This document shows, piece after piece, positions 1,057 to 9,208 of a DNA stretch of 12,151 bases (within the stretch, counting starts at the first letter, position 1; every line of letters starts with the position of its first letter). The notes beneath the pieces are model-generated. The model was not told where the DNA came from and searched no databases. It saw nothing but the letters and a program-made list of their open reading frames with translations. A program made the position numbers and the translations under genes. The DNA comes from Candidatus Iainarchaeum sp. (GTDB lineage Archaea; Iainarchaeota; Iainarchaeia; Iainarchaeales; CSSED10-239), in contig CALBUD010000040.1 of NCBI GenBank assembly GCA_937968065.1, positions 1 through 12,151 of the forward strand, in the 5' to 3' direction.

Positions 1057-1695
1057 ATGATTAAAGATTTAAAAAACAATTTAATTTTGAAAAAATGTTA
1101 TAAAAAACCTAACTTTGTAGATGATAAGTTTATTTTTAAATCTAAAAAATATCTTTTAAAAAATGATTTAGATTCTTTTTTTAGATTAGTTAAAATTAAT
1201 CTTGAAAGTAAAAAAGTATATTCAAACAAGTTATTTCATCTTTATTTCTATTTATTATATCTTTTAGAAAAAAAAGAAAAAACAAATTCTTTTTTAAAAC
1301 ATTTCGTTTATTCTAAATTAAATTATAAAATGCATTTCCTTTTTGAAAACATAATAGATAAAGAAATTTATTTATTTTTAAAGAAAAATCATAAACTTTT
1401 TAAAGATATTAAAGGAAAAAAATATTTAATTGTAAAAATTGATAATGATTTTATAAAATTAAAAGAAATGTTTTATAAGTTTGATGACTTTAATGAAAAA
1501 ACCATAAAAAAAGATGTTAAAGAATTAATCTCTTTTTTAAAAAAATTAATTAAATCAAAGAAGATTACAAAAAAAATAGCAAACAGTTTACTTAATTTAA
1601 CTTATTTAGATATTTCTGATTCTTTTGATCATTATAAAAACAAAGATAAAATAAATTTAGATAAGTTTATTAAAAAAAAAGATTTTAAAATTTAA
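1057..1695 (+). CDS. Hypothetical protein, extremely Lys/Asn/Phe-rich, predicted mostly helical
   Basis: A 212-codon stop-free frame in DNA of about 12% G+C cannot be chance. It has an ATG start and a TAA stop. I recognise no motif. Confidence 0.5.
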   Translation: MIKDLKNNLILKKCYKKPNFVDDKFIFKSKKYLLKNDLDSFFRLVKINLESKKVYSNKLFHLYFYLLYLLEKKEKTNSFLKHFVYSKLNYKMHFLFENIIDKEIYLFLKKNHKLFKDIKGKKYLIVKIDNDFIKLKEMFYKFDDFNEKTIKKDVKELISFLKKLIKSKKITKKIANSLLNLTYLDISDSFDHYKNKDKINLDKFIKKKDFKI

Positions 1696-2609: not shown

Positions 2610-4538
2610 ATGAATAAATTCAAAGTAGTTTCAAAATTTTCTCCAGCAGGAGATCAGGGAAAAGCAATTGAAGAACTATCAGACTCTTTAAAAAAAGGAA
2701 ATAAATTACAAACTCTTAAAGGTATAACTGCAAGTGGAAAAACCTTTGTTGTTTCAAAGATTATAGAACAACATCAAAAACCAACCCTTGTTCTAGCACA
2801 TAACAAAACCTTAGCAGCACAGCTTTATAGAGAACTAAAAGAATTCTTTCCAAATAATAAAGTTGAATATTTTGTATCATATTATGATTATTATCAACCA
2901 GAAAGCTATGTTCCTCAAAGAGATTTATATATTGAAAAAAACACAAAAATTAATGAAAAAATAGAAGAATTAAGACTTTCTGCAACAGCATCAATTGCTT
3001 CAAGAGAAGACACTATTGTTGTTGCTTCTGTTTCATGTATTTATTCTTTAGGAAATCCAGAAAAATTTAAAGAAATGGGTTTTGAATTATTTGTTGGACA
3101 AAATATTTTAAGACAAGATATTTTAGAAAAACTTGTTAACATACAATATGAAAGAAACGATATGGAGCTTTCACAAGGAAAGTTTAGAGTTAAAGGAGAT
3201 GTTATTGATCTTATTTTAGGATATTCTCAAAATATTATAAGAATAGAACTTTTTGGAAAAAAAATAGATAGAATAACAGAGATTGATAAGATCACTGGTC
3301 AAGTATTATCAAAAATAAATAAACTATATGTTTTTCCAGCAAAACACTTTGTTGTTGATCAGACAACAAAAGAAAAAGCTTTAGAATCTATTGAAAAAGA
3401 GCTTAATGAAGTTTTGCCAAAAATGAATGTTTTAGAAGCACAAAGATTAAAACAAAGAACAATGTATGATTTAGAGATGATAAGAGAAGCAGGATACTGT
3501 TCTGGTATTGAAAATTATTCAAGACATTTTGATGGAAGAAAGAAAGGAGAAAGAGCATACACATTAATTGATTATTTTCCAAAAGATTTTCTTTTAGTTA
3601 TTGATGAAAGTCATCAAACTTTACCACAACTTAGAGCTATGTATGCTGGAGATTTTTCAAGAAAAAAAAATTTAATTGATTATGGTTTTCGTCTTCCTTC
3701 AGCATATGATAATAGACCTTTAAAATTTATAGAATTTGAAAAAATTTTCATGAATAAAGTTATTTTTGTTTCAGCAACTCCTGGTGATTATGAACTTTCT
3801 AAATCTAAAAAAATATCAGAGCTTATTATTAGACCAACATGCTTAGTTGATCCTTTAATAGAATTGCAAAAATCAGAAGGACAAGTAAATCATTTAATAA
3901 AAAATATTAATGAAACAACTAAAAAAGGATTTAGAACTCTTGTAACAACTTTAACAAAAAAACTTGCTGAAGAAATATCAGAATATTTTGCAGAACAAAA
4001 TATAAAAACAAGATATTTACATTCAGAGATTAATACTTTAGAAAGAACAGAGATTATAAGAGAATTACGTTTAGGAAAATTTGATTGTCTTGTTGGTATT
4101 AATCTTTTAAGAGAGGGTCTTGATATTCCTGAAGTTGGTTTAATTGGTATTTTAGATGCTGATAAAGAAGGTTTTTTAAGAGATCAAAGAAGTCTAATAC
4201 AAATTATTGGAAGAGCTGCAAGAAATAAAGATTCAAAAGTTATTCTTTATGCTGATAGAATTACAGATTCAATTAAAAAAGCAGTTGATGAGACAGAAAG
4301 AAGAAGAAATATACAACTTGCTTATAATAAAAAGAATAATATTAATCCTAAGACAATAGTTAAACCAATTGAAGAAAAACATACAGAAATTAAAGATGTT
4401 AAATCTATTCCTAAAAAAGATATTTCAAGAATGCTTGTAGAGCTTGAAAAAGAAATGAGAAAAGCTTCAGATAATCTTGATTTTGAAACAGCTATTACTT
4501 TAAGAGATAAAATAAATCTTTTAAAGACAAGAAAATAA
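2610..4538 (+). CDS. uvrB: Excinuclease ABC subunit B (UvrB)
   Basis: Signatures are [14 protein letters not shown], Walker [48 protein letters not shown] (almost identical to bacterial UvrB), DESH box VIDESHQT, helicase motif [11 protein letters not shown], and a C-terminal UVR domain [12 protein letters not shown]. Confidence 0.95.
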
Positions 4539-4548
4539 AGGTTTTAAA

Positions 4549-4574
4549 AGGTTCAATTCCCGTCAGAAGCTTTT
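4549..4574 (+). repeat. tRNA 3'-end-like direct repeat, copy 1 (AGGTTCAATTCCCGTCAGAAGCTTTT)
   Basis: Identical to copy 3 over 26 nt. It starts 10 nt after the uvrB stop codon. It contains a T-loop-like GGTTCAATTCC, an acceptor-3'-strand-like CAGAAGC, and a T-run. Confidence 0.85.
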
Positions 4575-4666: not shown

Positions 4667-5926
4667 ATGGATAAAAGCTATTTAGAAAGAATAATTTTAG
4701 ATCAGTCAGAAGATCTTAAAAAGATGGATTTAGGTTTATCTAGAGATAAACTTTTAGAATTAGATACTCATATAAAATCAAAAATAAATATAATTATAAC
4801 TGGAGTTAGAAGGTGTGGTAAATCTACTTTATTATTACAGATAATGAATAAATATTATAAAAATAAATTTTATTATTTAAGATTTGCAGATGAAAGATTG
4901 TCAAATATACAAATAGAAGATTATCAAAAAATATATGAAGTTTTCTTAGCTAATTTCAATAAAAATAATATTTTCTTTTTTGATGAAATACAAGGAAAAC
5001 CAAATTGGGATAAGTTTGTTAATAGATTATATGAAACAGGAAATAAATTTTATATAACGGGATCTAATTCAGAACTTTTAAGTAAAGAAATATCTACACA
5101 TCTAACTGGTAGGCATTTAGATATAGAATTATATCCTTTTTCATTTAAAGAATATTTAAATTATAAAAAAATAGATATAGATTATAGATTTACAAAAAAT
5201 TTAATAAAAATAGAAAAAGAACTAAATAATTATTTAAAAAATGGTGGCTTTCCACAAGTGGTTGTTGAAAATAATACTTTCTTACTTGAAGAAATATATG
5301 AAGATATAATTAATAAAGATGTTTTATTGAGATATAATTTAAATGATGTTTCTACTTTCAAAAAAATAGTATTATTTTTAATCTCAAATGTTTCTAAAGA
5401 ATTTTCTTATAATTCAATTAAAAAAATGTATAATTTAGGTAATTCAGATACTGTTAGAAACTATATTTCTTATTTAACAAACTCATATTTATTATTTGAA
5501 TTGCCAAAATATGATTATTCTTTAAAAAAGCAAGAAACTTATGCTAAAAAAATATATGCAATAGATACTGGACTTATAAATAAGATGGCTTTTGGTTTTT
5601 CAGAAAATATAGGTAGATTATATGAAAATTTAGTTTTTATAGAATTAAAGAGAAGAGGTAAAAATATTTATTTTTGGAAAGATAAACTTGATTATGAAGT
5701 TGATTTTATGACTGTGGAAAAAAATAAAGTGACTTCTTTAATTCAAGTAACTTATGATTTAAGTAATTTTAAGACTAAAAAAAGAGAAATTAAAGGTTTG
5801 CTTTCTGGGTTAAAAGAGTTTAAATTAAAAAAAGGAATAATAATAACTAATAATTTAGAAAAAGAAGAAACTGTAGATAATAAAATAATTAAATATATAC
5901 CTTTATGGAAATGGTTATTGGATTAA
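4667..5926 (+). CDS. AAA+ superfamily ATPase, COG1373 type (AAA_14 N-domain + DUF4143 C-domain)
   Basis: It has Walker A GVRRCGKSTLL and Walker B FFFDEIQ with the following PNW. Further matches are ITGSNSELLSKEISTHLTGRHLDIELYPFSFKEY, KIYAIDTGLIN, and the C-terminal GRLYENLVFIELKRR...DYEVDF. This pattern is characteristic of the family. Confidence 0.85.
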   Translation: MDKSYLERIILDQSEDLKKMDLGLSRDKLLELDTHIKSKINIIITGVRRCGKSTLLLQIMNKYYKNKFYYLRFADERLSNIQIEDYQKIYEVFLANFNKNNIFFFDEIQGKPNWDKFVNRLYETGNKFYITGSNSELLSKEISTHLTGRHLDIELYPFSFKEYLNYKKIDIDYRFTKNLIKIEKELNNYLKNGGFPQVVVENNTFLLEEIYEDIINKDVLLRYNLNDVSTFKKIVLFLISNVSKEFSYNSIKKMYNLGNSDTVRNYISYLTNSYLLFELPKYDYSLKKQETYAKKIYAIDTGLINKMAFGFSENIGRLYENLVFIELKRRGKNIYFWKDKLDYEVDFMTVEKNKVTSLIQVTYDLSNFKTKKREIKGLLSGLKEFKLKKGIIITNNLEKEETVDNKIIKYIPLWKWLLD

Positions 5927-5971
5927 AAAGAGTGCTTTTAACTCAAGGTTCAATTCCTGCCAGAAGCTTTT
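5926..5971 (+). repeat. tRNA 3'-end-like direct repeat, copy 2 (extended 46-nt form; 26-nt core at 5946-5971)
   Basis: The core is AGGTTCAATTCCTGCCAGAAGCTTTT, with 2 substitutions relative to copies 1 and 3. The 20 nt upstream (AAAAGAGTGCTTTTAACTCA) align with the copy 3 flank at 15/20. It starts at the last base of the ATPase stop codon. Confidence 0.85.
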
Positions 5972-6097
5972 GCTAACGCAGGTTTGGAGTCTGCAGTTTT
6001 CAGTCTGGAGAGCTTTAAACAGTTGGTTTACAGCAATCTTATTCTATAAAGTATCAAAAACAAATTCTTGCAAAGATTCCTTTAATCTTTGGAAAAT

Positions 6098-6137: not shown

Positions 6138-6166
6138 TAATATTAATTCTAATATAGATAAGATAA

Positions 6167-6501
6167 ATGAGAATGATAGGTCTGTTAAACTTACAAGGTT
6201 GATTTTAAGGTACCATATCTTTTAAAAGAAGAAAAAGATATTAAAAAATATATTAAAAACATTAAAGAGAGTGAGGATGTTTTTATTGATAATAATATAA
6301 AAAAAAATTAAGGATTTTAATGATTTTAAAGAGGTAATATCTAAGTTTAATCAAGAATATAATAACACAGATGATTATCTTGTGTTATTTACAAAAGCTT
6401 TAGAGGTTAATGTTTTTAATAGTATTAAGGACGAGAATTTTAAAAGATTTATAATAGATAATGATCTTTTTAATAGGTTGAAGTATTATTGTGAAAGATG
6501 A
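6167..6501 (+). pseudogene. Possible decayed gene: three consecutive open segments in frames 2, 3 and 1
   Basis: ATG 6167..TGA 6202 gives MRMIGLLNLQG. 6204-6308 gives FKVPYLLKEEKDIKKYIKNIKESEDVFIDNNIKKN. 6301-6498 gives KKIKDFNDFKEVISKFNQEYNNTDDYLVLFTKALEVNVFNSIKDENFKRFIIDNDLFNRLKYYCER. The last two would fuse if one A were removed from the A9 run at 6299-6307. No recognisable domain. Confidence 0.3.
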
Positions 6502-6570
6502 GTTATTTTTCTAAATTATTGATTGAAAATAGTTCAGAAAGGATTTTTAAATGTTTTGTTATTCTGTATT

Positions 6571-6612
6571 TATAGCTATTGTTTTATAGCTATTGTTTTA
6601 TAGCTATTTTTA
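6571..6612. repeat. 14-bp tandem repeat TATAGCTATTGTTT x2 plus a degenerate third copy, in the promoter of the pilin-RCC1 gene
   Basis: 6571-6584 and 6585-6598 are identical. 6599-6612 is TATAGCTATTTTTA. The repeats are followed by TTTAAAATAT at 6609-6618 and ATG 6636. Confidence 0.8.
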
Positions 6613-6635: not shown

Positions 6636-7577
6636 ATGATTAGAAAAACTAACTTGGATTTTGATAAAAAAAGAAAAACAAGCTCTCAACCTTTTTTAGA
6701 AAAAAATGTTGACGAAAAAAGAAAAGCAATCTCTCCATTAGTAGCAACCATTCTAATAATAGTTGTTGCTGTTGCAATAATAATGATTGTTTTAAACTGG
6801 GGAAAAGCTTTTACACAAGGAGGTCTTCAAGATGCAACAAATGTTACAAGTTTTACAACTTCTGATGCTAGTAGTTTTATTTTCAGACCAGATATTAAAG
6901 GACAAACTTTAACCTTTACTTATTCTCCACCAGCTTCTTTAAAAAGTCAAACAATAATTGTTGATAGATTTTCAGTTCTTGGTTATGAAGGAATAATAGA
7001 TATTGATCCTCCAGTAACTTTAAGAGAAGGTTTAACTGGTATACAAAATTTAGATTTATCTTCTTTAGATATTCAAGAAAGAACAATAACAATTGTTTTT
7101 TATACAACAAATAATGAAATCATTACTTTAAAAAATATTGATTTAATAAATTATGTTCCTCCAGAATATGAATATTATTTATATGGTTGGGGTTCAAATT
7201 ATTATGGGAAATTAACGTTTTTTTTAAATTTAGATGTAATATCTGCTGGTCAGGAACATTCATTAGGTATTAGAAACGGAGAGCTTTATGCTTGGGGTTA
7301 TAATCAGTATGGTCAACTTGGAGATGGCACAACCTATAATGAACTTGTTCCCACAAGAATCGGAACTGATAGTGATTGGACAATGATCTCTGCTAGTGGA
7401 AGTCATTCATTAGGTATCAGAAACGGAGAGCTTTATGCTTGGGGTGAGAATGTTTATGGTCAACTTGGAGATGGCACAACTGATGATAAACTTGTTCCCA
7501 CAAGAATTGGAACTGATAGTGATTGGACAATAGTCTCTGCTGGTTATGAACATTCATTTGGTTTAAAAAATAGTTGA
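6636..7577 (+). CDS. Secreted/surface protein: archaeal class III (type IV pilin-like) signal peptide + unknown middle domain + C-terminal RCC1-type repeats
   Basis: KRKA|ISPLVATILIIVVAVAIIMIVLNW matches the archaeal pilin N-terminal pattern: a basic residue, then A/G, then xSPxxxTxLLI and a hydrophobic helix. The C-terminus carries RCC1 blade signatures HSLGIRNGELYAWGxNxYGQLGDGTT..LVPTRIG twice, plus a degenerate GWGSNYYGKL. ATG 6636 is preferred over the track's TTG 6579, which lies inside the tandem repeat. TGA stop at 7575-7577. Confidence 0.75.
   Translation: MIRKTNLDFDKKRKTSSQPFLEKNVDEKRKAISPLVATILIIVVAVAIIMIVLNWGKAFTQGGLQDATNVTSFTTSDASSFIFRPDIKGQTLTFTYSPPASLKSQTIIVDRFSVLGYEGIIDIDPPVTLREGLTGIQNLDLSSLDIQERTITIVFYTTNNEIITLKNIDLINYVPPEYEYYLYGWGSNYYGKLTFFLNLDVISAGQEHSLGIRNGELYAWGYNQYGQLGDGTTYNELVPTRIGTDSDWTMISASGSHSLGIRNGELYAWGENVYGQLGDGTTDDKLVPTRIGTDSDWTIVSAGYEHSFGLKNS
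7257..7577 (+). repeat. 147-bp (49-codon) in-frame tandem repeat encoding RCC1 blades: two full units plus a 27-nt decayed third
   Basis: Units at 7257-7403 and 7404-7550 differ at about 20 positions by hand alignment and share identical runs of 19-27 nt. The third unit (7551-) decays, and its TGA stop aligns with the GAG codon of NGELYAWG. Confidence 0.85.
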
Positions 7578-7660: not shown

Positions 7661-7706
7661 AAAAGAACGCTTTTCACTTTAGGTTCAATTCCCGTCAGAA
7701 GCTTTT
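7661..7706 (+). repeat. tRNA 3'-end-like direct repeat, copy 3 (extended 46-nt form; 26-nt core at 7681-7706)
   Basis: The core is identical to copy 1. The extended part AAAAGAACGCTTTTCACTTT aligns with copy 2. It lies between convergent genes, 103 nt after the RCC1-gene stop and 15 nt before the stop of the minus-strand gene. Confidence 0.85.
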
Positions 7707-7721
7707 ATTATTTTTTAAAAA

Positions 7722-8441
7722 TTATTTTGCTTCTGGAACAAAATTAAAATTTTTATCAAGTCTATATCCATTTTCAGGAGTAAAATAAACTTCAAATCCA
7801 AATTTTTTTAAAATATTTAAAACATTAAAAACAGTTTTTTTATTTTTTTTATTCCCTTCCATAGTGGATGCTTTATGCACTAAAAACCTTGTAATTTTTT
7901 TTCTTGTTTCTAACAAGCTTTTATTTTCTGAAATTGATTTTTGAATTTCTTGTGTTATATTTTTCATAAAAACATGATTTATCTTTATTGTTGTATACCC
8001 TAAAACTTTTTTTTCAGGATTTACAATTGCAATTACTTCATATCCATGTTTTGTTTTAGAATATTTAAAAATACCATCTATAAAAAGAAAAAGATCAGGA
8101 ATTGCATTTCCTTTGTTAAATTTTGGATTTTTAGAAGAATCTTGTAATTTAAAATAAAATAAACTTCCTTTTTGTCTAATATCTTTAGTTCTTTTTTTAG
8201 ATAATCTTTTTTCTAAAATATTTTTAAAAATTACATCATATCTTTTATTATTTATAACACTAAAAGAATTTAATCTATCTCCAGAAACATTAATTGCTTT
8301 TTCTCCAGGATGTTTATAAAAAGTTATTTTTCTAAGATTATTTATATCAATTTTTTTTAAACTATCAATTTCTGAAAGATATTTATCTCTTCCAATTTTT
8401 GGTTTTGGAATTATTCTTGGTATTATTTTTTTTGGTTTCAT
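7722..8441 (-). CDS. Hypothetical basic protein, paralog A of a tandem pair (possible inactive MPN-like member)
   Basis: 239 aa. Its ATG overlaps the upstream paralog's TGA (ATGA at 8438-8441). It shares with paralog B the N-terminal MKP..KIG, then PG, (A/I)(I/L)P, YxxIxxVxP....GYTTI(K/R)IN, and the C-terminal G(F/M)E(V/I)xFTPExGYRLDxxFN. Where paralog B has HTH and PSLSD, this protein has FYF and PDLFL. Confidence 0.6.
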   Translation of the reverse strand: MKPKKIIPRIIPKPKIGRDKYLSEIDSLKKIDINNLRKITFYKHPGEKAINVSGDRLNSFSVINNKRYDVIFKNILEKRLSKKRTKDIRQKGSLFYFKLQDSSKNPKFNKGNAIPDLFLFIDGIFKYSKTKHGYEVIAIVNPEKKVLGYTTIKINHVFMKNITQEIQKSISENKSLLETRKKITRFLVHKASTMEGNKKNKKTVFNVLNILKKFGFEVYFTPENGYRLDKNFNFVPEAK

Positions 8442-9061
8442 TTTTCTCTTATATAATTAAATCTATTATCTAATCTATAACCTGTTTCAGGAGTAAAAAC
8501 AATTTCCATGCCAAGACTTGGTAGCATTTCAAAAAGATGTATTTTATATTCTGCATTTTTTTTATTTTTAGAATTTAAATAAGGATTTATTTTTTCAATA
8601 AATTGTTCTGGAGTAACTTTGATATTATTAATTCTAATTGTTGTATACCCAATAGGTCTTCCATTTTTAGGATCAATTACAGAAATTATTTGATATTTAA
8701 TTGTTCTTTTTCTATCTTTTATAAAAGAAACAATATCTGATAAAGAAGGAAGAGCAATTCCATATTCTTCTCTTTTAGAATTTCTTTTAGTTATGTGAGT
8801 GTGCAAAAGTTGTGCTCTATTTTCAAGATTTCTAATTTTTCTTCTTATATTTTCTTTTATTTTTTCATTAAGTATTCTTTCAAGCTTAGCTGTGTTTTTT
8901 CCAACATGATTTTTTTGTCTATTATTAGAAACATCATGTATTCCTTTACCTGGTACTGAAAGTAATTGTATTTCTTTATTTTTAATATCTGCATCTTTTT
9001 TTAAAACATTTTCAAATTTATTTTTACCAATTTTTGATTTTCTAAATATTACAGGTTTCAT
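8438..9061 (-). CDS. Hypothetical basic protein, paralog B of a tandem pair (possible divergent JAMM/MPN+-like metalloprotease)
   Basis: Start moved to ATG 9061 (207 aa, MKPVIFRKSKIG...), which aligns with the paralog A N-terminus. On the minus strand TTTAAAATA begins about 33 nt upstream of this ATG. The protein contains H87-T-H89, P105-S106-L-S-D109 and IISVID130-P131..GYTTIRI. Confidence 0.6.
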   Translation of the reverse strand: MKPVIFRKSKIGKNKFENVLKKDADIKNKEIQLLSVPGKGIHDVSNNRQKNHVGKNTAKLERILNEKIKENIRRKIRNLENRAQLLHTHITKRNSKREEYGIALPSLSDIVSFIKDRKRTIKYQIISVIDPKNGRPIGYTTIRINNIKVTPEQFIEKINPYLNSKNKKNAEYKIHLFEMLPSLGMEIVFTPETGYRLDNRFNYIREK

Positions 9062-9208
9062 ATATATAAAATAAGGTAAATAGTATTTTAAATGTATGAG
9101 CTTTAATGTAGATATACATAAAAAGTTTGTTTTCTTAAACCTTCTTTTTTTAAACATATTGCTTTACATTAGATATATAAACTAATTTTTTTAAAAAAGG
9201 TGTTTTTT

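What the first reader, a model, noticed from the sequence alone, without database searches (positions are those of the whole stretch)
6636..7577. Archaeal pilin-type signal peptide fused to an incomplete, GC-richer RCC1 repeat array
The N-terminus carries a class III signal/pilin-like helix (KRKA|ISPLVATILIIVVAVAIIM). The C-terminus carries RCC1 beta-propeller blades encoded by 147-bp tandem units. Only two intact blades are present, plus a degenerate leading one (GWGSNYYGKL followed by TFFLNLD, next to a T8 run at 7219-7226) and a 9-codon stub, whereas RCC1 propellers need seven blades. The repeat DNA is compositionally distinct: 42% G+C in line 7321-7380, against 12% in 1381-1440 and 33% in 3001-3060. 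That suggests foreign origin or recent expansion. The protein may therefore be a decaying acquisition, a propeller assembled by oligomerisation, or an array shortened by short-read assembly collapse. The gene is the main cargo of the second repeat-bounded cassette.
Basis: partly seen in the sequence, partly recalled or inferred. Interest (0 to 1): 0.55.

Follow-up and report, generated by a model that had tools for sequence, protein, structure and literature searches.

The report
Archaeal pilin carrying three RCC1 blades
This is a real gene from a tiny symbiotic (DPANN) archaeon: a complete pilus-subunit protein whose outer end carries only three RCC1 propeller repeats instead of seven, one member of a large family of pilins with interchangeable sticky heads.

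Summary
ORF 6636-7577 (313 aa) starts with an archaeal class III/pilin N-terminus (KRKA|ISPLVATIL...) and ends in 147-bp RCC1 repeats.

The N-terminal 175 residues are a whole archaeal type IV pilin, not just a signal peptide. They are modelled as a long helix plus a beta-sandwich (pLDDT above 90, Foldseek hits to solved archaeal pili).

They belong to a family of at least 518 proteins whose C-terminal heads are swapped: GLUG, Lcl_C, Laminin_G, Kelch, NHL and, in four others, RCC1.

The RCC1 array has exactly three units: a short starter unit and two of 48-49 aa. Relatives with 4, at least 7.5 and 14 units share its start (LYxWG) and its end (…GLKNS*). The ends are therefore native, not a random truncation.

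The head is modelled confidently (pLDDT 93) as an open arc, about one third of a seven-bladed propeller.

The higher G+C comes mostly from amino-acid composition (33.9% expected, 37.2% observed), with a small excess at third codon positions.

Assembly collapse is unlikely but was not tested.

The gene sits in a variable cassette bounded by tRNA-Thr-derived repeats. That cassette is absent from the same locus in Ca. Forterrea multitransposorum.

The parts
6569..6608 (+). Perfect 14-nt tandem repeat (TTTATAGCTATTGT, 2.9 copies) holding three TATA-box-like TTTATA motifs. The last one lies about 35 nt upstream of the ATG. Probable promoter region.
   Evidence: TRF gives 100% matches; sequence read. 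The promoter role is inferred from the usual archaeal TATA-to-start spacing.
6636..7577 (+). Pilin-RCC1 gene, 313 codons plus a TGA stop
   Evidence: ORF list; exact protein P0001
6636..6728 (+). Basic leader of 31 aa ending in KRKA (predicted prepilin-peptidase site A31|I32). It contains a degenerate second copy of the motif (KKRKTSSQP).
   Evidence: Alignment with P0121-P0123. P0121 shares the long leader, also at the DNA level. Most relatives have leaders of 2-10 aa.
6729..6839 (+). Hydrophobic N-terminal pilin helix (residues 32-68)
   Evidence: AF2 helix 34-68, pLDDT 85-97. NCBIfam UpsA 0.008 and arch_flag_Nterm 0.04, both below threshold. PDB profile hit to 8fk7 pilin at E=0.0067.
6858..7160 (+). 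Pilin globular beta-sandwich domain (residues 75-175). Conserved in at least 518 proteins.
   Evidence: AF2 pLDDT 90-98. Foldseek hits to archaeal pilins 8fk7, 6nav, 6w8u and 8q30, probability 0.99-1.0, TMt 0.40-0.51. Profile search.
7179..7283 (+). RCC1 starter unit (35 aa): half-blade LYGWGSNYYGKL, a shortened loop (TFFLNLD), then VISAGQEHSLGIRNGE
   Evidence: tBLASTn HSP starts at 7179; alignment A7. The starter motif LN[LF]D.I.AG is shared with P0245 and P0246.
7284..7430 (+). RCC1 unit 2 (49 aa)
7431..7574 (+). RCC1 unit 3 (48 aa). It ends in the native C-terminal half blade ...SAGYEHSFGLKNS.
   Evidence: P0246, P0245 and the gene upstream in L071 end in the same phase.
4529..4574 (+). 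Repeat copy 1: core only (4550-4570), the last 21 nt of a tRNA-Thr(GGU), 11 nt after the UvrB stop codon
   Evidence: A degenerate copy sits at the same place in Ca. Forterrea.
5926..5971 (+). Repeat copy 2: 22-nt extension plus tRNA-Thr core, immediately 3' of the AAA_14/DUF4143 ATPase gene. Left boundary of the pilin cassette.
7661..7706 (+). Repeat copy 3: extension plus core, 84 nt after the pilin-RCC1 stop codon. Right boundary of the cassette.
   Evidence: The orthologous copy in Ca. Forterrea also lies next to a hyp7722-like 3' end.
6140..6503 (+). Frameshifted remnant of a coding sequence inside the same cassette, upstream of the pilin gene
   Evidence: Three-frame translations; no homologue sought

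Best explanation
The gene encodes an intact, modular archaeal type IV pilin-like surface protein from a relative of Ca. Forterrea multitransposorum (DPANN archaea, Diapherotrites).

**Inferred mechanism**
- A prepilin peptidase cuts after KRKA.
- The hydrophobic helix (residues 32-68) anchors the protein in the membrane or in the core of a type IV pilus-like filament.
- The beta-sandwich (residues 75-175) forms the pilin body.
- The C-terminal RCC1 module is displayed outward as a binding head. This resembles the RCC1-propeller minor pilin PilX2 of Saccharibacteria and PilY1 of Pseudomonas.

**What is shown about the head**
- It is one of many interchangeable heads in this pilin family.
- It consists of exactly three RCC1 units with native half-blade ends: strands C and D at the N-terminal side, strands A and B at the C-terminal side.
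- It can form only an open arc of about three blades of a seven-fold propeller.

**Most likely history**
This is a genuinely short array in the genome. Units 2 and 3 arose by a fairly recent duplication or were homogenised by gene conversion. The array is not a randomly truncated pseudogene and not an assembly artefact.

Whether the open arc binds a ligand alone, pairs its half-blades with another molecule, or is a weakened relic is not known.

**Shown versus inferred**
- Shown: domain architecture, fold predictions, family membership, native ends, composition, and the variable cassette context.
- Inferred: processing, filament incorporation and adhesion.
For: **Architecture**
- Pfam RCC1 repeats are above the cut-off.
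- Residues 1-183 have homologues at 50-54% identity that carry an Lcl_C head instead.
- A profile search finds 518 relatives. Their heads include GLUG, Lcl_C, Laminin_G_3, Kelch, NHL, DUF5122, FGE-sulfatase and PKD, and RCC1 in four others.

**Fold**
- AF2 predicts a helix at 34-68 and a beta-sandwich with pLDDT above 90.
- Foldseek matches solved archaeal pili 8fk7, 6nav, 6w8u and 8q30 at probability 0.99-1.0.
- A sequence profile hits the 8fk7 pilin.

**Head**
- The RCC1 part alone is modelled at pLDDT 93.2, pTM 0.88.
- It overlays about one third of UVR8, RPGR and HERC2 propellers: TMq 0.75-0.87, TMt about 0.3, rmsd 1.4-2.8 A.
- P0245 (14 units), P0246 (4 units) and the gene upstream in L071 (at least 7.5 units) have the same end phase. 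P0245 and P0246 also share the start phase and the starter-unit motif.

**Gene integrity**
- No frameshift or internal stop.
- The N-terminal part has native codon usage: GC3 7.1% against 6.8% expected.
- TATA-like motifs lie about 35 nt upstream of the ATG.

**Against assembly collapse**
- The longest word shared by units 2 and 3 is 26 nt.

**Functional analogy**
- TM7x PilX2, a minor pilin with a seven-bladed RCC1 propeller, is needed for efficient host binding (PMC11623550, read).
Against: - No seven-bladed ring is possible, and no closed three-bladed propeller is known. The head may therefore be non-functional.
- The full-length AF2 model gave low confidence for the head (pLDDT 40-60). Confidence became high only with a hand-phased alignment.
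- The pilin HMMs do not reach their curated thresholds for this protein.
- The 31-aa leader is long for a class III signal peptide.
- No prepilin peptidase or pilus assembly gene is in the window.
- dN/dS of about 1.1 between units 2 and 3 is compatible with relaxed constraint.
- A frameshifted gene remnant sits in the same cassette.
- Read depth could not be examined.
Confidence: 0.6

Rival explanations
1. Assembly collapse. The real gene has seven (or more) RCC1 units, and near-identical internal units were merged by a short-read assembler. The native first and last units were left in place.
For: - The ends are the native ends seen in the 14-unit P0245. Collapse of internal units would leave exactly this picture.
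- Units 2 and 3 are unusually similar: 81% in DNA against a median of 63-66% in relatives. This shows that recent amplification happens here.
- The unit length is 147 bp, about one read length and a multiple of 3.
Against: - The two units retained share no exact word longer than 26 nt, so they are resolvable at usual k-mer sizes.
- The contig runs through the array without a break.
- A 4-unit relative, P0246, was assembled independently next to an array of at least 7.5 units on one contig. Short arrays therefore exist, and long ones do assemble.
Confidence: 0.15
2. Decaying gene. The RCC1 head is a functionless remnant of a once complete seven-bladed head, and the gene (or at least its head) is on the way to loss inside a degrading mobile cassette.
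For: - Three units cannot close a propeller.
- The starter unit lacks about 14 loop residues.
- dN/dS is about 1.1 between units 2 and 3.
- A frameshifted ORF remnant lies in the same cassette.
- No integrase is present.
Against: - The reading frame is intact over 313 codons in a genome with 23% G+C, where random stop codons are frequent.
- The start and stop of the array are at the native positions.
- The structural consensus residues of both full units are kept: 49-54% identity to intact bacterial RCC1 blades, and pLDDT 93.
- The pilin core keeps the columns that are invariant among its close homologues.
- A 4-unit relative shows that short arrays recur.
Confidence: 0.2
3. Recently acquired foreign (bacterial) RCC1 DNA was fused to a native pilin gene, which would explain the G+C jump.
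For: - GC3 of the RCC1 part is 18.5% against 10.2% expected from native codon usage. The excess is concentrated in unit 2 (24.5% against 11.4%).
- The top-scoring RCC1 matches in the general database search, where a source names them, are bacterial proteins, and the best local identities are 58-63%.
- The gene is in a variable cassette.
Against: - About three quarters of the G+C excess is forced by amino-acid composition: 33.9% expected, 37.2% observed, 23.1% for the contig.
- RCC1 arrays of relatives in AT-rich archaeal contigs have 33-35% G+C.
- A GC3 of 18.5% is still far below that of typical bacteria.
- The array phase (starting at strands C,D and ending at A,B) and the starter motif are shared with the archaeal pilin-RCC1 proteins P0245 and P0246. 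The bacterial homologues inspected start at strand A and end after strand D.
Confidence: 0.08
4. Not a filament subunit. The class III signal peptide only targets and anchors a cell-surface binding protein, as with the bindosome sugar-binding proteins of Sulfolobales, without assembly into a pilus.
For: - Class III signal peptides on non-pilin binding proteins are widespread in archaea (bioRxiv 10.64898/2026.04.22.720090, read).
- No pilus machinery is in the window.
- Bulky heads on every subunit would be hard to pack in a filament.
Against: - The protein has the complete pilin body (helix plus beta-sandwich) that matches subunits of solved archaeal pili, not only the signal peptide.
- Relatives occur in clusters of several pilin-like genes (L071).
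Confidence: 0.15

Closest known systems
PilX2 of Saccharibacteria TM7x (minor type IV pilin with a C-terminal RCC1 beta-propeller; PMC11623550)
   Same: A pilin-like N-terminal module carries an RCC1-repeat head. The organism is an ultrasmall (epi)symbiont. PilX2 is needed for efficient host binding, which is the role inferred here.
   Different: PilX2 is bacterial. Its pilin part is unrelated to the archaeal Pilin_N type. It has a complete seven-bladed propeller and no predicted PilD signal peptide. The window protein has three units and an open arc.
Pseudomonas aeruginosa PilY1 (pilus-associated adhesin with a C-terminal seven-bladed propeller)
   Same: A beta-propeller is displayed on a type IV pilus as the adhesive element.
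   Different: PilY1 is not a pilin. It is large, and its propeller is not RCC1-type. No sequence relationship was tested or expected.
Archaeal type IV pilins of solved filaments (S. islandicus LAL14/1 pilus 6NAV, P. calidifontis 8FK7, P. arsenaticum 6W8U, S. acidocaldarius Aap 8Q30)
   Same: Same lollipop fold for residues 32-175: an N-terminal helix plus a beta-sandwich (Foldseek probability 0.99-1.0). Same kind of N-terminal motif.
   Different: Those pilins are about 130-145 aa and have no extra C-terminal domain. TM-scores are moderate (0.40-0.51 on the target), and sequence similarity is confined to the helix.
Closest homologues P0121, P0122 and P0123 (uncultured archaea; JGI name 'flagellin-like protein')
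   Same: 50-54% identical over the leader, helix and beta-sandwich. P0121 also shares the long leader.
   Different: Their C-terminal head is an Lcl_C/DUF1566 domain, not RCC1. The swap point is at about residue 176-181 of the window protein.
Archaeal pilin-RCC1 proteins P0245 (14 units) and P0246 (4 units)
   Same: Same RCC1 subtype: the array starts at LYxWG, has a starter unit with LN[FL]D.I.AG, and ends at ...K[NT][NS]*.
   Different: Different numbers of units. Extra domains lie between pilin and array. Their pilin parts are only distantly related to that of the window protein.
Oligomeric beta-propeller lectins (for example Ralstonia solanacearum RSL, two blades per chain, trimer forming a six-bladed ring) - recalled from the literature, not tested here
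   Same: A chain with too few blades for a ring can still give a functional propeller by oligomerisation.
   Different: Different blade family. No evidence here for oligomerisation, and three-unit chains cannot tile a seven-fold ring.

Membership tests
Archaeal type IV pilin / class III signal peptide protein (Pfam Pilin_N PF07790, TIGR02537) | Basic leader ending in [KR][GA], cleavage before a roughly 20-residue hydrophobic helix | tested here: met
   The sequence reads ...DEKRKA|ISPLVATILIIVVAVAIIMIVL. The same motif is the consensus of 157 relatives. The 31-aa leader is longer than usual.
Archaeal type IV pilin / class III signal peptide protein (Pfam Pilin_N PF07790, TIGR02537) | Score above the curated HMM threshold | tested here: not met
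   - No Pfam Pilin_N hit for the window protein, even at E up to 10.
- TIGR02537 scores 13.4 bits against a cut-off of 20; UpsA is at E=0.008.
- The close homologues score 19-20 bits against a cut-off of 25.2.
- 23 of 157 relatives hit Pilin_N at E up to 1e-3.
Archaeal type IV pilin / class III signal peptide protein (Pfam Pilin_N PF07790, TIGR02537) | Lollipop fold: long N-terminal helix plus a C-terminal beta-sandwich, as in solved archaeal pili | tested here: met
   AF2 pLDDT above 90 for residues 40-175. Foldseek 8fk7, 6nav, 6w8u and 8q30 at probability 0.99-1.0, TMt 0.40-0.51.
Archaeal type IV pilin / class III signal peptide protein (Pfam Pilin_N PF07790, TIGR02537) | Processing by a PibD/EppA-type peptidase and assembly by a type IV pilus ATPase and platform | not testable with these tools
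   No such genes are in the 12-kb window. The rest of the genome is not available.
RCC1-like domain (seven-bladed beta-propeller) | RCC1 repeats recognised above the Pfam gathering score | tested here: met
   PF00415 at 104.4 bits against 21.7; PF13540 at 55.4 against 22
RCC1-like domain (seven-bladed beta-propeller) | Seven blades closing into a ring | tested here: not met
   - Three units only.
- PF25390 WD40_RLD scores 89.5 bits against a cut-off of 150 and covers profile positions 199-314 of 363.
- The model overlays about one third of UVR8 and RPGR (TMt about 0.3).
Pilus-displayed beta-propeller adhesins (PilX2 / PilY1 type) | Pilin or pilus-associated N-terminal part plus a complete C-terminal propeller | tested here: inconclusive
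   The pilin part is present. The propeller is incomplete in this gene but complete in the family members P0241, P0252 and P0245.
Pilus-displayed beta-propeller adhesins (PilX2 / PilY1 type) | Demonstrated role in adhesion or host binding | not testable with these tools
   Needs experiments. The only evidence is the analogy with TM7x PilX2.
tRNA-targeting integrative element (context of the gene) | Direct repeats identical to the 3' end of a tRNA gene flanking the inserted DNA | tested here: met
   - Three copies of the last 21 nt of tRNA-Thr(GGU).
- The orthologous locus in Ca. Forterrea has other cargo between the same repeats.
tRNA-targeting integrative element (context of the gene) | Integrase gene in the element and an intact tRNA gene at one end | tested here: not met
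   No integrase family was found among the window proteins scanned. The only tRNA in the window is tRNA-Tyr at 907-979.
Integron-type gene cassette array (context of the gene) | Structured attC site 3' of each cassette gene, plus IntI and attI | tested here: not met
   The site does lie 3' of each gene in one orientation. However, it has no significant fold (z-scores -0.8 to +0.7), and no integrase is in the window.

The most novel reading that the evidence does not exclude
Short RCC1 arrays on archaeal pilins (3 units here, 4 in P0246) may be deliberately incomplete propellers. Their complementary half-blade ends (strands C,D at the start, A,B at the end) would pair between molecules. Partner chains, for example 3+4 units, or neighbouring subunits on a filament would then complete blades in trans. 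This would resemble donor-strand complementation and give combinatorial adhesive heads. These heads would be exchanged among DPANN archaea on small cassettes bounded by a tRNA-Thr-derived site.
Probability: 0.1. Interest if true: 0.75.

Novelty: new variant of a known kind. Interest (0 to 1): 0.42.

Why it matters
DPANN archaea and CPR bacteria are ultrasmall organisms that live attached to other cells. How they recognise and hold on to hosts is largely unknown.

This gene belongs to a large archaeal pilin family that is, as far as my literature searches show, undescribed. In this family a conserved pilus-subunit body carries interchangeable lectin or adhesin heads.

The RCC1 head parallels the RCC1-propeller minor pilin that Saccharibacteria need for host binding, so the two groups may have converged on one solution.

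The three-unit array with native half-blade ends is also a natural case for asking how few blades a propeller module needs.

The cassette context points to a route by which such surface genes are swapped between genomes.

Tried and rejected
- **Second copy of the gene:** I looked for another assembly of the same gene to compare unit numbers. The exact protein has no other contig on record. The scan of JGI metagenomes found only relatives at 42% identity or less over the whole pilin part. The copy number could not be cross-checked.
- **Known RNA in or near the gene or repeats:** Rfam found only tRNA-Tyr. At a relaxed threshold there was one chance-level snoRNA match.
- **Repeats as intact, split or tRNA-like genes:** ARAGORN finds nothing at the repeats. 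The 5' strand of the T-stem is missing. The element has no significant fold.
- **Element in viral contigs:** no match in IMG/VR.
- **T8 run as a frameshift site hiding more RCC1 sequence:** the other frames give no RCC1 similarity. Such runs are common in this window.
- **Alternative start at TTG 6579:** rejected, because it would lie inside the TATA-like tandem repeat.
- **Bacterial-type promoter and terminator scan:** uninformative, at the level expected by chance.
- **dN/dS between units 2 and 3:** about 1.1, Fisher p=1. Too few sites to separate neutral from diversifying evolution.
- **First AF2 run:** a mixed whole-protein alignment gave a poor head model.
Full report
**Observation.** The window is a whole 12,151-bp contig with 23.1% G+C. 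It carries housekeeping genes: UvrB, superoxide dismutase, deoxyhypusine synthase, an RNase T-like exonuclease and a tRNA-Tyr.

Residues 28-50 read KRKA|ISPLVATILIIVVAVAIIM. The C-terminal third gives Pfam RCC1 at 4.6e-30 (104 bits, cut-off 21.7) and RCC1_2 at 4.3e-15. TRF reports a 147-bp period, 2.2 copies and 84% matches at 7237-7562. The G+C values quoted for the three 60-nt lines are correct. The T8 run is at 7218-7225 and is one of 20 such A or T runs, so it needs no special explanation.

**The N-terminal two thirds are a complete pilin.** A search with residues 1-183 found only three homologues among 5.8 billion proteins. They are 50-54% identical and 283-296 aa long. They have the same leader, helix and middle domain but end in an Lcl_C (DUF1566) domain. 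JGI calls one of them 'flagellin-like protein'.

A profile of these four sequences, run against 1.84 billion cluster representatives, found 518 proteins at E up to 1e-3. Most match from their residue 2-10 onwards, which means a short class III leader followed by the helix and the middle domain.

AlphaFold2 models residues 34-68 as one long helix and 75-175 as a beta-sandwich, with pLDDT 90-98. Foldseek matches this part to subunits of solved archaeal type IV pili at probability 0.99-1.0 and TM 0.40-0.51 on the target: P. calidifontis 8FK7, S. islandicus 6NAV, P. arsenaticum 6W8U and S. acidocaldarius Aap 8Q30. A sequence profile also touches 8FK7, Iho670 and a Natrinema pilin, weakly.

The curated pilin HMMs stay below threshold for this protein. 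Membership therefore rests on motif and fold, not on an HMM score. The 31-aa leader is unusually long. It contains a degenerate copy of the cleavage motif and is shared with P0121, also at the DNA level.

**A family with interchangeable heads.** I scanned 157 relatives with Pfam. C-terminal to the pilin body they carry GLUG repeats, Lcl_C, Laminin_G_3, Fn3_assoc/CHB_HEX_C_1, DUF5122, Kelch and NHL propellers, FGE-sulfatase, PKD, DUF285 and others. Four further proteins carry RCC1. The 'fusion' is therefore the normal architecture of this family.

The pilin part of the window protein is closest to the Lcl_C-headed members. Its head is of the type found in P0245 and P0246. This implies a head exchange at about residue 176-181.

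**The RCC1 array.** In the phase LYxWG the array has exactly three units:
- Unit 1, 7179-7283, 35 aa. It lacks about 14 loop residues.
- Unit 2, 7284-7430, 49 aa.
- Unit 3, 7431-7574, 48 aa.

No RCC1 remnant exists elsewhere in the window.

Three independent relatives have arrays of the same subtype with the same boundaries:
- P0245 has 14 units.
- P0246 has 4 units.
- The gene upstream of P0246 on L071 has at least 7.5 units and is cut by the contig end.

P0245 and P0246 start at LYxWG directly after a non-RCC1 domain. Their first unit has the special motif LN[FL]D.I.AG, and the window has LNLDVISAG. All of them stop within one residue of ...G[IL]K[NT][NS]*.

In blade terms the arrays begin with strands C and D and end with strands A and B. 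Seven or fourteen units would close by a 2+2 'velcro' blade. The bacterial homologues that I inspected instead start at strand A and end after strand D.

So the 'degenerate leading blade' and the 'stub' are native ends, and the array is an integral three units.

With a hand-phased alignment, AF2 models the head at pLDDT 93.2 and pTM 0.88. Foldseek lays it on about one third of the seven-bladed UVR8, RPGR and HERC2 propellers: TMq 0.75-0.87, TMt about 0.3, rmsd 1.4-2.8 A. It is an open arc that keeps seven-fold geometry, not a closed fold.

**History of the array.** Units 2 and 3 are 81% identical in DNA (69% in protein). The median between units in the relatives is 63-66%. dS is about 0.19 and dN/dS about 1.1. 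This points to a fairly recent duplication or conversion, but the counts are too small to infer selection.

**Composition.** The RCC1 part has 37.2% G+C. Re-encoding its amino acids with the codon usage of the other ten genes gives 33.9% (sd 0.8), against 23.1% for the contig. About three quarters of the excess is therefore forced by Gly, Trp, Asp, Pro, Ala and Arg. RCC1 arrays of relatives on similarly AT-rich contigs have 33-35% G+C with GC3 of 11-13%.

A residual GC3 excess remains: 18.5% against 10.2% expected, mainly in unit 2. The units are not independent samples, so this is weak evidence. The pilin part has native codon usage. Foreign origin of the repeat DNA is therefore not supported by composition.

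**Collapse.** The longest exact words shared by units 2 and 3 are 26, 23 and 19 nt, below usual final k-mer sizes. Longer arrays of this subtype assemble intact elsewhere. Collapse of additional near-identical units cannot be excluded without reads, and I put it at about 0.15.

**Context.** The three direct repeats found have a 21-nt core that equals the 3' end of tRNA-Thr(GGU), from the T-loop to the acceptor strand. An intact gene with this end is seen in another archaeal MAG and in Akkermansia.

Copies 2 and 3 carry a further 22-nt extension. The same extension plus core occurs outside any tRNA gene in several DPANN MAGs, including Ca. Forterrea multitransposorum.

The window is syntenic with the complete Forterrea genome: UvrB is 91.6% identical, RNase T 76%, and the two 239-aa proteins 58%. 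In Forterrea the order is UvrB, a degenerate core, a 318-aa methyltransferase-like gene, extension plus core, then a fragment resembling the 3' end of hyp7722.

The window instead has, between the same landmarks, an AAA_14/DUF4143 ATPase cassette and the pilin-RCC1 cassette. The latter also holds a frameshifted gene remnant at 6140-6503.

In another MAG an orthologous ATPase (64% identical) is followed by the element and then, across a contig junction with a 55-nt overlap, by a GLUG-headed member of the pilin family.

No integrase or intact tRNA-Thr is present. The element has no significant RNA fold and was not found in IMG/VR.

**Mechanism and comparison.** The best-supported reading is a pilin-like surface protein that displays an RCC1 module as a binding head.

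The nearest described analogue is PilX2 of Saccharibacteria TM7x. It is a minor pilin with a seven-bladed RCC1 propeller, and its deletion halves host binding (PMC11623550). PilY1 is a looser analogue.

A recent survey of archaeal type IV filament systems mentions adhesin-like and class III signal-peptide proteins, but in the passages I read it does not mention this family or RCC1 heads. Full-text searches for RCC1 with archaeal pilins returned nothing relevant.

What differs from every known case is the three-unit open arc with native half-blade ends. Processing, filament incorporation and adhesion are all inferred.

**Verdict.** The gene is a new variant of a known kind (pilus-displayed propeller or lectin heads), of moderate interest. 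Two open questions remain: what a three-blade RCC1 arc does, and what the tRNA-Thr-derived cassette site is.

Noticed in passing
window 4529-4574, 5926-5971, 7661-7706; also L020 5748-5768 and about 6780-6805, L002 5656-5698, L007 12-54, L017 561-605, L021 3767-3809: A 45-nt element derived from tRNA-Thr(GGU): a 22-nt extension AAAAAGAGCGCTTTTAACCTTT plus the last 21 nt of the tRNA. It is conserved across several DPANN MAGs, lies outside any tRNA gene, and sits 3' of unrelated genes. In the window, three copies bound two single-gene cassettes. The orthologous locus of Ca. Forterrea multitransposorum has different cargo between the same repeats. No integrase, no significant fold, and no match in IMG/VR.
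   Followed up: partly
window 6569-6608: A perfect 14-nt tandem repeat (TTTATAGCTATTGT, 2.9 copies) just upstream of the pilin gene gives three TATA-box-like motifs. Changes in copy number could alter promoter strength or spacing (possible phase variation).
   Followed up: no
window 6140-6503: Three overlapping reading frames together read like one frameshifted coding sequence, ending ...FKRFIIDNDLFNRLKYYCER*. It is a probable pseudogene remnant inside the pilin cassette. No similar sequence was found in the first 26 fetched loci (L001-L026).
   Followed up: partly
window 4667-5926; L002 4285-5547; L021 1732-3042; L032 1-681; L004 1396-2670: An AAA_14/DUF4143 ATPase gene recurs next to the tRNA-Thr-derived element (window, L002, L021). 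It also recurs within a few kb of a gene of this pilin family (window; L032; L002 joined to L007 by a 55-nt overlap at the contig ends). Identity to the window protein is 50-81%.
   Followed up: partly
window 7722-8441 and 8438-9157 (- strand); L020 597-2043 and 5416-5592: Two tandem paralogous genes for 239-aa proteins of unknown function, overlapping by 4 nt. There is no Pfam match above threshold. Both are conserved in Ca. Forterrea (58% identity), which also has a truncated third copy right next to the tRNA-Thr-derived element.
   Followed up: partly
window 1057-1695: An ORF of 212 aa with only 14% G+C (GC2 9%), extremely rich in Lys, Asn, Ile, Phe and Leu, with no Pfam match. It lies directly downstream of tRNA-Tyr (907-979).
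   Followed up: no
window 5972-6060: A stretch clearly richer in G+C than its surroundings (the 60-nt line from 5941 has 45%) directly after repeat copy 2. It has no long ORF and no Rfam match. Folding z-score is only -1.2.
   Followed up: partly
L071 2-5476 (Logan SRR14932604): A cluster of four consecutive genes. The first encodes an RCC1 array of at least 7.5 units (its N-terminus is cut by the contig end). The other three have class III signal-peptide N-termini: P0246 (4 RCC1 units), a 176-aa pilin-like protein, and a Laminin_G-type protein of more than 786 aa. This looks like a pilin and adhesin gene island in another AT-rich contig, presumably archaeal.
   Followed up: partly
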